The notes beneath the pieces are model-generated. The model had not been told where the DNA came from. It ran no database searches and saw only the letters and a program-made list of their open reading frames with translations. A DNA stretch of 64,000 nt from NCBI RefSeq assembly GCF_030013205.1, contig NZ_CP122648.1. The stretch is one strand, 5' to 3'. Below are positions 48,307-50,420 of this stretch, one piece after another. The stretch comes from Escherichia coli (GTDB lineage Bacteria > Pseudomonadota > Gammaproteobacteria > Enterobacterales > Enterobacteriaceae). A program made the translations under genes and the position numbers. Position 1 is the stretch's first letter, and each line of letters opens with the position of its first letter.

Positions 48307-48996
48307 TCAGAAGAACCCTGCCTTGTCGTTGATGTACTCCGCGTGCGTCTGGATATCACGCAGGCATTTGCTCACACCGACGATGTAGCAGAACATGGTG
48401 GTCAACTCCGCCGCCGCGCCCGATACGTCGTGCCCGTCTTCCTGTAACTGGTTCAGCAGATTCATCAGCAGTGAGTTCTCCGTCAGGCCGAGAACACCAG
48501 ACGGAGAATGAATCAGGCTGCGGTAGCCGGGCTTCAGCGGGGCACTGTAGGTTTTGTTCTCTATCTTCATTGCCTGCATCACTGCTGATGCTGTGGCGTT
48601 GGCTACCTGGTCGGCAACCATCTTTATGCGTTCTTCCTGCGGGAGCGAGTTTTTAATGTAACTTCCGGTGCGGCGGATCTGAGGAAGAACCTCACCTGTA
48701 ACCCATTCAAGAAATCTGAATGCTCTCGTTCCCTCAGTCATTGCCTCTTTGCAACGCAGAATAAGGATGTAGAGACCTGATTCTGAAACGATGGATAGTT
48801 CTTGTATTCCACCAGGGGTCTGTATTGAATACAGCCCCTTTTTGTTCCAGCCTTTTTTATCAAGTTTTCTCGCTTGTGTAACATCAATATTCAAAGCATT
48901 GCACACATCTTTGGTGACAAACCAAGGTTCTCCGTCAATCATGAACATACGGATCTGGCAGGATGACTCAAAGGAAAAGATGGAAGGTTTGGTATT
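48307..48996 (-). CDS. Bro-N domain protein (putative antirepressor)
   Basis: Start set at MNTKPSIFSFE...IRMFMIDGEPWFVTKDVCNAL (Bro-N-like); C-terminal domain paralogous to the 91-aa ORF at 50145-50420. Confidence 0.6.
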   Translation of the reverse strand, partial: NTKPSIFSFESSCQIRMFMIDGEPWFVTKDVCNALNIDVTQARKLDKKGWNKKGLYSIQTPGGIQELSIVSESGLYILILRCKEAMTEGTRAFRFLEWVTGEVLPQIRRTGSYIKNSLPQEERIKMVADQVANATASAVMQAMKIENKTYSAPLKPGYRSLIHSPSGVLGLTENSLLMNLLNQLQEDGHDVSGAAAELTTMFCYIVGVSKCLRDIQTHAEYINDKAGFF

Positions 48997-49394
48997 CATG
49001 GCGATCACCTTTGTAGTTAGGTTAATCACCACCGCTGAGACCAATCAGATGGTGGTGAACTGTGCAGAGTTGGTCTTACCGGCTACAAAGGAACCCGGCG
49101 CACCTTTCGGTGCCCCCACACAGCCCACCATAGAATAGGTGCGCTTTACACATAAAAAAACCGCTTATGCGGCATATGTGCCTCTGTAGTAATCCGGGAG
49201 ACCAATCCCGGCACTGGATTTTGCCAGTGCCCGATTACTATGGCACAAGAGGAGTGCGATGTAAATTTACCGCAAAGGTAATGATAAACGCGAAGAAATA
49301 TTAAAATCAACCGTATTTGGTTGATTGCGTTTAACGCTTGATCACCTGAAAGCAAGATATTACCTTTAAGGTAATGTTATTGTGAGGAAAGGCA

Positions 49395-50123
49395 ATGGAA
49401 GTTTTCTGGGTAGTTGTTGGTGTGGTTGCGGTGATTATTTACGTTATCAACCAGAACAAGACTAAGATCTCTGATCGTACGGTCGTTAATCATAACAAAA
49501 CGATAAAGACTGAAGATGGGGAGATAACGATTAATCGTACACAGGTGATAGAACACACCTCCACTCAGTTTCAAAAAACGGGAGATAATGCGCCTAATAT
49601 TTCCGTACCTCCTGCTTATGATAGCGCGGTAATCCAGACATATTATAAACAGCAGGAGTTAGCAAAAGAGAGGCAACTGATTCAGCCAAAGCCGTTTACA
49701 GCTGAGCTTCCACCCGGAGTGTCAACGCGTCCGGCATATCATGGAAGATTCCCTGGTGATGACATATCGTCTCAGTCATCTAAAAAAGCACCTCAGGCAG
49801 TATCAGAGCCAGCAAGAATACCTTCTGTATCGCCGCCAAAAGAAGAATCAGCTAACAGAGTTTCAAGTGGTAGCAAGCAGTGCTTGCGATGCAGAATAAA
49901 CCTTCCATATGAAAAATTCAGGAAATCGTCAAAAAATCCAGATGGATTGACTAAGTGGTGTGCAAGGTGTCTCGATGGCCCAAAGAATACACGCCATATG
50001 AAGTGGTGCCCAATTTGTAATGTCCGCAGAAAACGAACTAGCTTTTACCCTAATAATCAAAATGCGGACGGCTTAATGGCATGGTGCAAAACGTGCTGGG
50101 ACGAGCACAAAGCGAAACGATAG
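49395..50123 (+). CDS. membrane-anchored protein with duplicated C-terminal CxxC-N21-CxxC zinc-ribbon motifs
   Basis: N-terminal TM (VFWVVVGVVAVIIYVI); repeats CLRCR...NPDGLTKWCARC and CPICN...NADGLMAWCKTC; operator-like sites upstream at 49266-49282 and 49359-49375. Confidence 0.55.
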   Translation: MEVFWVVVGVVAVIIYVINQNKTKISDRTVVNHNKTIKTEDGEITINRTQVIEHTSTQFQKTGDNAPNISVPPAYDSAVIQTYYKQQELAKERQLIQPKPFTAELPPGVSTRPAYHGRFPGDDISSQSSKKAPQAVSEPARIPSVSPPKEESANRVSSGSKQCLRCRINLPYEKFRKSSKNPDGLTKWCARCLDGPKNTRHMKWCPICNVRRKRTSFYPNNQNADGLMAWCKTCWDEHKAKR

Positions 50124-50144
50124 GCCGCTAGAGCGGCCTTTTCT

Positions 50145-50420
50145 TTATGTGGTTTGTTTTCGTAATTGTTCGGCACAATAGTCGAGATGTGTTTGCAGAT
50201 CCTGCATAGACATCTGTGAGCTGGTGACGTAGTTAATCAGTGCAGTCAGTTCGGCAAGTGGGCCATCGACATTAAATCCATCCTTATCGAGATCCCGGAG
50301 TAATTTCATCAAGTGCGATCCCTCCACCAGTGATCTGACGCCTCCCGGCGTGTGAATCCTTTCGGTAAATCCGTCTTCCAGTGGATAGTGATACTGCTGC
50401 ATCTTATCTTCTCCATGCAA
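50145..50420 (-). CDS. standalone paralogue of the Bro-N protein's C-terminal domain
   Basis: 91-aa ORF; HTPGGVRSLVEGSHLMKLL...QTHLDY aligns with HSPSGVLGLTENSLLMNLL...QTHAEY of the 48307-48996 protein. Confidence 0.5.
   Translation of the reverse strand: MHGEDKMQQYHYPLEDGFTERIHTPGGVRSLVEGSHLMKLLRDLDKDGFNVDGPLAELTALINYVTSSQMSMQDLQTHLDYCAEQLRKQTT

What the first reader, a model, noticed from the sequence alone, without database searches (positions are those of the whole stretch)
48307..50420. Bro-N putative antirepressor and a standalone copy of its C-terminal domain
The C-terminal ~60 residues of the Bro-N protein and the 91-aa ORF at 50145-50420 are clearly homologous (shared GV..L.E.S.LM.LL..L...G..V.G..AELT......V......D.QTH). 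The repressor lacks a LexA-like peptidase domain, so induction may depend on an antirepressor; a duplicated partner domain could modulate it.
Basis: partly seen in the sequence, partly recalled or inferred. Interest (0 to 1): 0.5.

Follow-up and report, generated by a model that had tools for sequence, protein, structure and literature searches.

The report
Two antirepressors sharing one effector domain
The small ORF is the known SOS-controlled antirepressor (Ant) of epsilon15/phiV10-like phages, and the Bro-N protein is a second antirepressor with a related Ant-like domain, held in check by a P1-style C4 antisense RNA; the parts are known, but their shared domain is a useful detail.

Summary
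The C-terminus of the Bro-N protein and the small ORF align at 42% identity over 74 residues (E 1e-19). The interpretation has the roles reversed.

**The small ORF.** Its true CDS is 50145-50402 (85 aa). It is the orthologue of Ant of Salmonella phage SPC32H (88% identical; PDB 5D50). SPC32H Ant is the small antirepressor that removes the non-cleavable repressor Rep from DNA. The ORF has a near-consensus LexA box at 50422-50441. It lies divergently upstream of the tailspike gene, as in SPC32H. The cognate Rep is at 31583-32167 and has no peptidase domain.

**The Bro-N protein.** Its true CDS is 48307-48999 (230 aa). It is a second antirepressor made of a Bro-N domain plus an Ant-like domain. 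Its gene sits behind a P1 immI-type cassette:
- a promoter abutting a Rep-type palindrome;
- an isrK-like leader;
- a C4 antisense RNA whose loops are complementary to the gene's ribosome-binding site, with three-way covariation across eight loci.

**Relatives.** Phage vB_EcoP_ZX5 has an identical Rep, an identical Ant and an identical Ant-like domain. Published overexpression of its Bro-N protein cut lysogeny about 1000-fold.

**Verdict.** This is a new member of known kinds, in a defective prophage at guaA. Interest is moderate to low.

The parts
   Evidence: 88% identical to SPC32H Ant / PDB 5D50_E. 100% identical to the unannotated ZX5 protein. Same position and orientation next to the tailspike gene as SPC32H_020.
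50422..50441 (.). LexA (SOS) box AACTGTATATTTATACAGTA, 20 nt upstream of the ant ATG
   Evidence: It is the only match in 64 kb to the 20-nt consensus with up to 3 mismatches (it has 2); none occurred in 100 shuffles. A CTGT-N8-ACAG box sits at the same place in SPC32H, phiV10, TL-2011b, Tyrion, 65FD, L005, L009 and L011.
50479..50493 (.). TTACC-N5-GGTAA palindrome (candidate Rep operator) in the ant/tailspike divergent region
   Evidence: One of 9 copies in the window against 0.03 expected. The same motif is at the syntenic site in SPC32H (20013).
50122..50139 (.). GC-rich hairpin between the ant stop and the stop of the 242-aa ORF (terminator-like)
49267..49310 (-). Promoter-like TTGATT-18-TATCAT whose -10 abuts the palindrome TTACCTTTGCGGTAA (49267-49281); start of the immI-like unit
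   Evidence: The arrangement '-10-like / ATTACC-N5-GGTAAATTTACA' is conserved in all 8 aligned loci.
49154..49230 (-). isrK-like leader RNA with leaky terminator; holds the a1 (49200-49205) and b1 (49181-49189) sites
   Evidence: Rfam RF01394 at 74.7 bits (gathering score 50). RF03163 c4-a1b1 at 39.9 bits, below its gathering score of 46.7. Terminator-like hairpin at 49160-49173.
49048..49135 (-). C4 antisense RNA; a' at 49070-49075 and b' loop at 49083-49091
   Evidence: Rfam RF01695 at 78.6 bits (gathering score 45), full length. Present upstream of every X-AntL gene examined.
49008..49044 (-). C4 targets: a2 (TTGGTC, 49039-49044) and b2 (CUACAAAGG, 49008-49016), which covers the Shine-Dalgarno of the Bro-N gene
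   Evidence: Exact complements of a' and b'. Three-way covariation across loci with 4 b-types and 2 a-types.
48307..48999 (-). Bro-N/Ant-like fusion protein (230 aa): Bro-N domain 48682-48954, helical linker, Ant-like domain 48325-48555
   Evidence: Pfam Bro-N. 5D50_E match at E 1e-13. AF2 model with Foldseek hits to 4YE7 and 5D50_E/G/H (TM 0.75-0.79). 81% identical overall, and identical over the C-terminal half, to ZX5 ORF4 'anti-repressor'.
31583..32167 (-). rep: 194-aa non-cleavable repressor, the inferred target of both antirepressors
   Evidence: Full-length match to SPC32H Rep 5D50_A at E 4e-42, 42% identity. 100% identical to ZX5 ORF21. Pfam shows HTH hits only and no Peptidase_S24.
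32223..32285 (.). rep/cro-like intergenic region with one perfect and one 1-mismatch TTACC-N5-GGTAA palindrome (candidate immunity operators)
   Evidence: SPC32H has two copies in its rep/cro spacer.

Best explanation
The locus belongs to a phiV10/epsilon15-like (Uetakevirus) prophage of E. coli. The prophage sits at guaA and is defective. It encodes two antirepressors with homologous effector domains, probably aimed at one repressor and wired to two different inputs.

(1) ant (85 aa) is the SOS arm. LexA sits on the box in its promoter. After DNA damage Ant is made. By homology with SPC32H Ant, it then acts as a tetramer that binds the C-terminal domains of two Rep dimers and takes Rep off its operators. 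Rep itself cannot be cleaved.

(2) The Bro-N/Ant-like protein (230 aa) is an immI-type arm. Its transcript starts at a promoter that abuts a Rep-type palindrome. It runs through an isrK-like leader and a C4 RNA. The a' and b' loops of the C4 RNA pair with a2/b2 over the gene's Shine-Dalgarno, so translation is blocked while C4 is abundant, that is, in the lysogen. The protein is made when C4 is scarce relative to its target, either early after infection or after derepression. It then pushes towards lytic growth, most likely by binding Rep through its Ant-like domain.

Shown here: the homologies, the LexA box, the C4/isrK RNAs, their covarying targets, and the synteny. Taken from the literature on identical or near-identical proteins: Ant binds Rep, and ZX5 ORF4 lowers lysogeny. 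Inferred: the palindrome is the Rep operator, the Ant-like domain of the fusion binds Rep, and the timing of expression.
For: Ant identity. LexA box: and conserved in relatives. Rep identity and lack of a peptidase domain.

SPC32H mechanism as described in PMC9638917, PMC9986798 and bioRxiv 10.1101/2025.11.27.690993.

Ant-like domain in the fusion.

C4 and isrK above Rfam gathering scores. The same cassette lies before every X-AntL gene in 9 other loci. It is absent from the two examined loci that lack such a gene, L004 and L017. Exact complementarity of C4 a'/b' with a2/b2 at the ribosome-binding site and with a1/b1, with 4 b-types and 2 a-types.

Palindrome: 9 copies against 0.03 expected, at the rep/cro spacer and at the starts of transcription units in the window, SPC32H and ZX5.

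N-terminal domain swapped (Bro-N variants, AntA, Rha) while the Ant-like domain and the slot beside ant are kept.

Experiment on the ZX5 protein, whose C-terminal half is identical and whose Rep is identical: overexpression lowered lysogens from 10^9 to 10^6 and rep transcript by 75% (PMC9782041; identities).

P1 precedent that Ant is controlled by C1, C4 RNA and Icd: PMC8201110.
Against: No direct evidence that the Ant-like domain of the fusion binds Rep. It is only 42% identical to Ant.

The ZX5 experiment is overexpression only, without binding data. The phiV10 copy of the fusion has a frameshift that truncates its Ant-like domain, so the domain is dispensable for that phage.

The palindrome also precedes late operons, so it could belong to another regulator. 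No icd-like coupled ORF was identified, so the cassette is not an exact copy of P1 immI.

Foldseek E-values for the small domain are 7e-3 to 2e-2, above the usual 1e-3 cut-off.
Confidence: 0.75

Rival explanations
1. One reading: the Bro-N protein is the antirepressor that induces the prophage, and the small ORF is a duplicated partner domain that modulates it.
For: The Bro-N protein is the one annotated as 'anti-repressor' in several records. Its ZX5 homologue lowers lysogeny when overexpressed.
Against: The small protein is 88% identical to SPC32H Ant, which on its own binds and inactivates Rep. It carries the LexA box. It is present in Uetakeviruses that have no Bro-N gene at all (SPC32H, 65FD, L017). 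The Bro-N gene has no LexA box, and phiV10 carries it with a truncated Ant-like domain.
Confidence: 0.07
2. The Ant-like domain in the fusion is only an oligomerisation module. The Bro-N protein is a DNA-binding transcription factor that promotes lytic genes without touching Rep.
For: SPC32H Ant is a tetramer. The model's N-terminal (Bro-N) domain matches DNA-binding folds such as Ski/Dachshund and APSES/Mbp1. The most conserved columns of alignment A1 are largely hydrophobic and glycine positions, and could be structural.
Against: The domain is found only in Uetakevirus-like prophages, beside ant. Three unrelated N-terminal domains are exchanged in front of it, which argues that the C-terminal domain carries the specific function. 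C4/immI control is the hallmark of antirepressor genes in P1.
Confidence: 0.1
3. The fusion co-assembles with Ant into mixed tetramers. It either poisons Ant as a brake on induction or brings the Bro-N domain into the Rep-Ant complex.
For: The two domains are homologous and encoded side by side. Ant works as a tetramer. In most relatives the two genes are tandem and co-directional.
Against: 42% identity is low for co-assembly. ZX5 ORF4 overexpression favoured lysis, not lysogeny. There are no interaction data.
Confidence: 0.08
4. The fusion targets repressors of other, heteroimmune Uetakevirus-type prophages or incoming phages (cross-talk), rather than its own Rep.
For: Precedent: Fels-1 FsoA is under phage-repressor control, is not needed for Fels-1 induction, and inactivates the Gifsy-2 repressor (PMC3121763). 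Ant is far more conserved than Rep (88% against 42%), which suggests broad specificity in this family.
Against: The ZX5 experiment shows an effect on a phage carrying this very Rep. This rival is not exclusive of the best explanation.
Confidence: 0.1

Closest known systems
Rep-Ant antirepression system of Salmonella phage SPC32H (Kim & Ryu 2013 J Virol 87:11775; Kim et al. 2016 PNAS 113:E2480; PDB 5D4Z, 5D50)
   Same: The small ORF is 88% identical to Ant. It has the same length, the same position divergent from the tailspike gene, a LexA box at the same place, and a Rep-type palindrome about 40 bp further upstream. Rep is a full-length homologue without a peptidase domain.
   Different: Rep is only 42% identical. 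SPC32H has no Bro-N/Ant-like gene and no C4 cassette (no Bro-N/Ant-like gene is annotated in the SPC32H record; SPC32H was not scanned with Rfam).
immI region of coliphages P1/P7 (c4 antisense RNA - icd - ant; Citron & Schuster 1990; summarised in PMC8201110)
   Same: A C4 RNA (RF01695) is processed from the same transcript as the antirepressor gene. There are a1/b1 sites upstream and a2/b2 downstream over a ribosome-binding site. The a/b sequences vary and covary like the P1/P7 immunity specificities. The promoter is associated with a repressor-type operator.
   Different: The host phage is a short-tailed Uetakevirus, not P1. b2 covers the ribosome-binding site of the antirepressor gene itself, and no icd-like gene was identified. 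The antirepressor has a Bro-N plus Ant-like architecture unrelated in its C-terminus to P1 Ant. Its presumed target is Rep, not C1.
ORF4 'anti-repressor' of Escherichia phage vB_EcoP_ZX5 (PMC9782041)
   Same: 81% identical overall and 100% identical over the C-terminal 126 residues. Same locus, same isrK/C4 cassette, identical Rep and identical Ant. Overexpression reduced lysogeny.
   Different: The Bro-N domain is a different allele. The paper did not notice the small Ant (annotated hypothetical), the Ant-like domain or the C4 RNA. In the window a 242-aa ORF is inserted between ant and the cassette.
Gifsy-1 isrK-orf45-anrP locus of Salmonella (PMC4825925)
   Same: An isrK RNA with a leaky terminator, then a processed RNA (STnc1160/orf45 region), then an antirepressor-like gene whose translation is controlled by RNA pairing.
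   Different: The host is a lambdoid prophage. There IsrK acts in trans as an activator through a coupled upstream ORF. I did not compare AnrP with the window protein.
P22 immI (mnt-arc-ant, sar RNA) and Gifsy/Fels-1 small antirepressors (PMC3121763)
   Same: A second antirepressor outside the immunity region. LexA-controlled small antirepressors act on non-cleavable repressors. One antirepressor (FsoA) is under phage-repressor rather than LexA control. TL-2011b even carries a P22-type arc-ant-sar module next to this locus.
   Different: No sequence relationship to these proteins was tested or seen. The control elements differ.

Membership tests
SPC32H-type small antirepressor Ant (PDB 5D50 chains E-H; phrog_450) | Full-length sequence homology to SPC32H Ant, about 85 aa | tested here: met
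   E 1.7e-47, 88% identity over 84 aa; phrog_450 at E 7.5e-48.
SPC32H-type small antirepressor Ant (PDB 5D50 chains E-H; phrog_450) | LexA operator in its promoter (SOS control) | tested here: met
   An 18/20 match to the consensus, 20 nt upstream of the ATG, unique in the window and conserved in relatives. Actual LexA binding was not tested.
SPC32H-type small antirepressor Ant (PDB 5D50 chains E-H; phrog_450) | Cognate two-domain Rep without an autocleavage domain in the same phage | tested here: met
   Rep at 31583-32167 matches 5D50_A over its full length. Pfam finds no Peptidase_S24.
SPC32H-type small antirepressor Ant (PDB 5D50 chains E-H; phrog_450) | Tetramer that binds the Rep C-terminal domain and releases Rep from DNA | not testable with these tools
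   Known for SPC32H only.
Ant-like domain in the Bro-N protein (membership of the Ant fold/family) | Significant sequence and fold similarity of residues about 149-225 to Ant | tested here: met
   E 1e-19 to the window Ant and 9.8e-14 to 5D50_E. The AF2 domain has pLDDT 82-93. Foldseek to 5D50_E/G/H gives TM 0.75-0.79, rmsd 1.6-2.4 A, probability 1.00, but E-values of 0.009-0.024.
Ant-like domain in the Bro-N protein (membership of the Ant fold/family) | Conservation of the Rep-contacting residues of Ant | not tested
Only family-wide invariant columns are known.
P1-type immI module (C4 antisense RNA-controlled antirepressor gene) | C4 RNA encoded upstream of, and on the same strand as, the antirepressor gene | tested here: met
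   RF01695 at 78.6 bits against a gathering score of 45. The same holds in 9 related loci.
P1-type immI module (C4 antisense RNA-controlled antirepressor gene) | a'/b' of C4 complementary to a2/b2 over a ribosome-binding site and to a1/b1 upstream | tested here: met
   Exact 7-9-nt complements in all 8 loci, with 4 b-types and 2 a-types covarying three ways.
P1-type immI module (C4 antisense RNA-controlled antirepressor gene) | icd-like leader gene translationally coupled to ant | tested here: inconclusive
   By eye (sequence) I see only a 28-codon ORF inside the C4 region, ending 45 nt before the ATG. b2 covers the Shine-Dalgarno of the Bro-N gene itself.
P1-type immI module (C4 antisense RNA-controlled antirepressor gene) | Promoter under control of the primary repressor (Op51-like) | tested here: inconclusive
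   The palindrome TTACC-N5-GGTAA abuts the -10-like hexamer and is conserved. That Rep binds it is inferred from its presence in the rep/cro spacers.
Bro-N domain proteins (Pfam PF02498) | Match to the Bro-N profile and fold | tested here: met
   PF02498 at E 4.8e-13. The best Foldseek hit is 4YE7, the baculovirus Orf22 N-terminal domain.
LexA/lambda CI-type autocleavable repressors (considered for Rep) | C-terminal Peptidase_S24 domain with Ser/Lys dyad | tested here: not met
   Pfam finds only HTH families. The C-terminus aligns to the SPC32H Rep tetramerisation/Ant-binding domain.

The most novel reading that the evidence does not exclude
The Ant-like domain may be a portable Rep-binding and tetramerising module that Uetakevirus-like prophages use twice. 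It appears once alone under LexA. It appears again fused to interchangeable N-terminal domains (Bro-N, AntA, Rha) under a C4 antisense RNA with combinatorial a/b specificities. The two proteins may even co-assemble, so that SOS and immI-type immunity signals would converge on one complex with Rep. This would be the first case in which the variable C-terminal 'specificity' domain of the very large Bro-N/AntA/Rha 'antirepressor' class could be given a solved fold and a defined target.
Probability: 0.3. Interest if true: 0.55.

Novelty: new member of a known kind. Interest (0 to 1): 0.35.

Why it matters
The result corrects annotation. The SOS antirepressor of phiV10-like E. coli prophages is labelled 'hypothetical protein' in RefSeq and in phage records, and the C4/isrK RNAs are not annotated.

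It shows that one non-cleavable repressor is probably answered by two homologous antirepressors with different sensors, DNA damage and antisense-RNA immunity. That helps explain induction and superinfection behaviour of phiV10-type phages, which are used for O157 typing and detection and are common in E. coli (about 480 of 5426 complete genomes carry the module).

It also gives a concrete, testable assignment for the C-terminal domain of one group of Bro-N 'antirepressors'. The circuit is intact here in a defective prophage, where it could still act on related incoming phages.

Tried and rejected
- Pfam on the small ORF gave only a spurious DUF724 hit. NCBIfam and PADLOC gave nothing for either protein or for the neighbouring accessory (moron) genes.
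- The word-indexed protein search with Ant returned only close standalone relatives. The exhaustive representative search was needed to find the fusions.
- I looked for a LexA box upstream of the Bro-N gene. None is there. The only other CTGT-N8-ACAG in the window (37348) lies inside coding sequence and is chance level.
- The mechanical TTG starts (49044, 50420) were rejected in favour of the ATGs with Shine-Dalgarno sequences and matching database lengths.
- The two primary SPC32H papers (PMC3807360, PMC4983836) are not held. The published Rep operator and the Ant-Rep contact residues therefore could not be checked, and the SPC32H mechanism is cited second-hand.
- I considered modelling a Rep C-terminal domain/Ant-like domain complex with a linker trick. 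I rejected it as unreliable with so shallow a paired alignment.
- I considered that the palindromes might be chance or a repeat family. That was rejected by 9 copies against 0.03 expected and by their syntenic positions in SPC32H and ZX5.
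Full report
**Setting.** The window holds an E. coli chromosomal segment (xseA-guaB-guaA ... yfgI-pdeF-ppx-ppk) with a prophage at the 3' end of guaA. The 17-bp att core reported for phiV10, epsilon15 and vB_EcoP_ZX5 (ATTGAGTGGGAATGATT, PMC9782041) occurs at 26217 and 55362. Gene order matches epsilon15/phiV10-like short-tailed phages of the genus Uetakevirus: int, early-left recombination genes, rep, cro-like gene, replication genes, internal virion proteins, tailspike, holins, endolysin. The finding lies in the accessory region between the last large virion-protein gene (43717-46269) and the tailspike gene (50598-52967).

**Observation.** The claimed similarity is real. 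BLASTP gives 42% identity over 74 ungapped residues, E 1e-19. Both proteins hit phrog_450 and phrog_15539. The N-terminal Bro-N domain is confirmed by PF02498, E 4.8e-13. The true starts are ATG 48999 (230 aa, identical to a 355-member cluster) and ATG 50402 (85 aa), not the TTG codons of the mechanical ORF list.

**What the small ORF is.** Against solved structures it matches one chain only, 5D50_E, 'Anti-repressor protein' of Salmonella phage SPC32H (E 1.7e-47; 88% identity). In the SPC32H record, ant (SPC32H_020) lies divergently upstream of the tailspike gene, exactly as here. Twenty bases upstream of the ATG is AACTGTATATTTATACAGTA. This is the only match in 64 kb to the 20-nt LexA consensus with up to 3 mismatches, and no shuffle produced one. 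A box is found at the same place in SPC32H, phiV10, TL-2011b, Tyrion, 65FD and several prophages, and one-mismatch versions occur in Klebsiella-type loci. The window also encodes the partner. ORF 31583-32167 aligns over its full length to SPC32H Rep (5D50_A, E 4e-42, 42% identity). It has HTH hits only and no Peptidase_S24.

**Published mechanism for Ant and Rep.** Papers I could read describe Rep as a tetramer whose C-terminal domain both tetramerises and binds Ant. They describe Ant as a tetramer that binds two Rep dimers and breaks the DNA-binding tetramer. Many antirepressors of this kind are LexA-controlled (PMC9638917, PMC9986798, bioRxiv 2025.11.27.690993). The original papers (Kim & Ryu 2013; Kim et al. 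2016) are not held. The 'standalone copy' is therefore the primary, SOS-linked antirepressor of this phage group. RefSeq and most phage records call it 'hypothetical protein'.

**What the Bro-N protein is.** Residues about 149-225 match Ant (5D50_E, E 9.8e-14). An AlphaFold model built on a 39-sequence alignment has mean pLDDT 75, and 82-93 in the C-terminal domain. It shows an N-terminal alpha/beta domain, a long linker helix and a helical C-terminal domain. Foldseek against the PDB returns the baculovirus Orf22 N-terminal domain (4YE7) and Ski/Dachshund/APSES-type DNA-binding folds for the N-terminus. For the C-terminus it returns 5D50_E/G/H (TM 0.75-0.79, rmsd 1.6-2.4 A, 39% identity), although the E-values are only 0.007-0.02.

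An exhaustive search of 1.8 billion representatives finds a small family of 44 clusters. Most members are standalone proteins of 80-95 aa. Some are C-terminal fusions to Bro-N (P0138), AntA-like (P0137) or Rha-like (P0130, P0134) domains. Every context I examined is a Uetakevirus-like prophage with the fusion gene in the same slot beside ant and the tailspike gene. The hosts were E. coli, Klebsiella and several other genome or metagenome assemblies whose host I did not check, and the loci included a Rha fusion and a distant standalone Ant. The C-terminal half is identical in the window, TL-2011b, ZX5 and the AntA fusion, while the N-terminal domains differ. The Ant-like domain is thus the constant, phage-group-specific part, and the N-terminal domain is exchangeable.

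**Control of the Bro-N gene.** There is no LexA box. Instead, Rfam finds on the gene's strand an isrK RNA (49154-49230, 74.7 bits, gathering score 50). This overlaps the c4-a1b1 target motif, which scores 39.9 bits and is below its threshold. Rfam also finds a C4 antisense RNA (49048-49135, 78.6 bits, gathering score 45).

The C4 loop CCUUUGUAG (b') is the exact complement of CUACAAAGG at 49008-49016, which includes the Shine-Dalgarno 8 nt before the ATG. GACCAA (a') is complementary to UUGGUC at 49039-49044. Copies of both targets (a1, b1) lie in the isrK part.

The same cassette precedes every fusion gene examined: TL-2011b, phiV10, Tyrion, ZX5, four prophages and the Rha fusion. It is missing where there is no fusion gene (65FD, L017). 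Across eight aligned loci, b', b1 and b2 change together in four versions (CUACAAAGG, CUAAAAGG, CUAAGUGG, GUCACAGG). The a', a1 and a2 sites change together in two versions (UUGGUC, UUGGCG), in different combinations. [quoted passage not shown] It also resembles the Gifsy-1 isrK-orf45-anrP locus (PMC4825925).

**Candidate Rep operators.** The palindrome TTACC-N5-GGTAA occurs 9 times in the window against 0.03 expected, and all copies lie inside the prophage:
- in the rep/cro spacer (32223, plus a one-mismatch copy at 32271);
- as two pairs spaced 62 bp apart, before the early-left genes (31449, 31511) and before the gene at 34652 (34572, 34634);
- before the 69-aa ORF (48226);
- before the 242-aa ORF (49360);
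- abutting the -10-like hexamer of the isrK/C4 unit (49267);
- upstream of the ant LexA box (50479).

SPC32H has 10 copies and ZX5 has 10 at syntenic positions, including the rep/cro spacers. I infer that these are Rep operators, dispersed as C1 operators are in P1. If so, the Bro-N unit is also transcriptionally repressed in the lysogen. This is an inference. The motif also precedes late operons, and I could not consult the paper that mapped the Rep sites.

**Experimental anchor.** Phage vB_EcoP_ZX5 has a Rep 100% identical to the window's, an identical Ant (annotated hypothetical), and an ORF4 'anti-repressor' that is 81% identical overall and identical over the last 126 residues, with the same isrK/C4 cassette. 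In PMC9782041, overexpressing ORF4 lowered lysogens from 10^9 to 10^6 PFU/mL and rep transcript by 75%. Overexpressing Rep blocked lytic growth. The authors noted only the Bro domain and left the mechanism open.

**Synthesis.** Two antirepressors with homologous effector domains serve one non-cleavable repressor.
- Ant is the DNA-damage arm.
- The Bro-N/Ant-like protein is an immI-type arm, silenced by C4 RNA (and probably by Rep) in the lysogen. It is made when C4 is limiting, that is, early after infection or after derepression. There it would delay or prevent establishment of repression, or lock in induction.

The step 'the Ant-like domain of the fusion binds Rep' is inferred from homology, from confinement to this phage group and from the ZX5 phenotype. 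It is not shown. Rivals are pure oligomerisation, mixed tetramers with Ant, and cross-talk with other prophages. They remain open at low probability each.

**Differences from relatives.**
- A 242-aa ORF on the opposite strand, with a GC-rich terminator hairpin, separates ant from the cassette. In ZX5 and most prophages the two units are tandem.
- The prophage spans only 29.2 kb, against 39.5 kb for ZX5. A 3' remnant of the major head gene (36953-37333) follows the early genes directly, so terminase, portal, protease and most of the capsid gene are deleted. The regulatory circuit is intact in a defective prophage.

**Novelty.** Ant/Rep, C4/isrK cassettes and Bro-N 'antirepressors' are each known, and identical proteins exist in a characterised phage. 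I did not find a statement in the searchable literature that the Bro-N antirepressor's C-terminal domain is an Ant homologue, or that the two arms coexist. I rate this a new member of known kinds with a modest new connection.

Noticed in passing
window 31449, 31511, 32223, 34572, 34634, 48226, 49267, 49360, 50479; L006 (SPC32H) 12, 3175, 20013, 33528-36034; L015 (ZX5) 14626, 17757: The palindrome TTACC-N5-GGTAA marks the start of nearly every transcription unit, including late operons, in three phages whose Rep proteins are only 42% identical. Two pairs are spaced exactly 62 bp apart. This looks like a dispersed operator set in the style of P1 C1.
   Followed up: partly
window 26217-55378: The prophage at guaA spans 29.2 kb between att cores, against 39.5 kb for intact relatives. 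Terminase, portal, protease and most of the capsid gene are missing, and a head-protein remnant lies at 36953-37333. It is a defective prophage with intact immunity and lysis genes.
   Followed up: yes
window 49395-50123 (+): A 242-aa ORF (phrog_6762) has an N-terminal hydrophobic segment and two C-terminal CxxC zinc-ribbon repeats that weakly match endonuclease VII/HNH/Lar-like families. It is inserted between ant and the C4 cassette, behind its own palindrome. It is absent from ZX5 and most relatives.
   Followed up: partly
window 47124-48240 (-): A 69-aa ORF and an overlapping 288-aa membrane-protein ORF lie behind a palindrome-bearing promoter. They occupy the accessory-gene (moron) slot that holds a YafO-like toxin pair in TL-2011b and L011. 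There is no PADLOC or NCBIfam hit. They could be a superinfection-exclusion or abortive-infection pair.
   Followed up: partly
L002 (phiV10) 3157-3741: The phiV10 copy of the Bro-N gene (PhiV10p23, 194 aa) is frameshifted inside the Ant-like domain, although its C4/isrK cassette is intact.
   Followed up: yes
L001 (TL-2011b) 1783-2967 and 1954-2021: TL-2011b carries, next to the same locus, a P22-type Arc/Ant pair with a sar RNA (RF00262). That phage therefore has three antirepressor genes under three different controls.
   Followed up: no
window 53088-53297 (-): Only a 69-aa N-terminal remnant of the O-antigen acetyltransferase gene (oac) remains downstream of the tailspike gene.
   Followed up: partly
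window 58212-60416 (+): The host gene pdeF (c-di-GMP phosphodiesterase) is split into two ORFs of 364 and 358 aa. The same gene is annotated as frameshifted in E. coli K_EC180.
   Followed up: partly
window 36242-36718 (+): The ORF translation contains a near-perfect tandem duplication of a 16-residue stretch: GEMMDYSQLSDFEINR appears twice.
   Followed up: no
L003 (Tyrion) 3322-3486: The Tyrion record annotates only a 54-aa C-terminal piece of Ant (gp21). This is either a mis-called start or a truncated gene.
   Followed up: no
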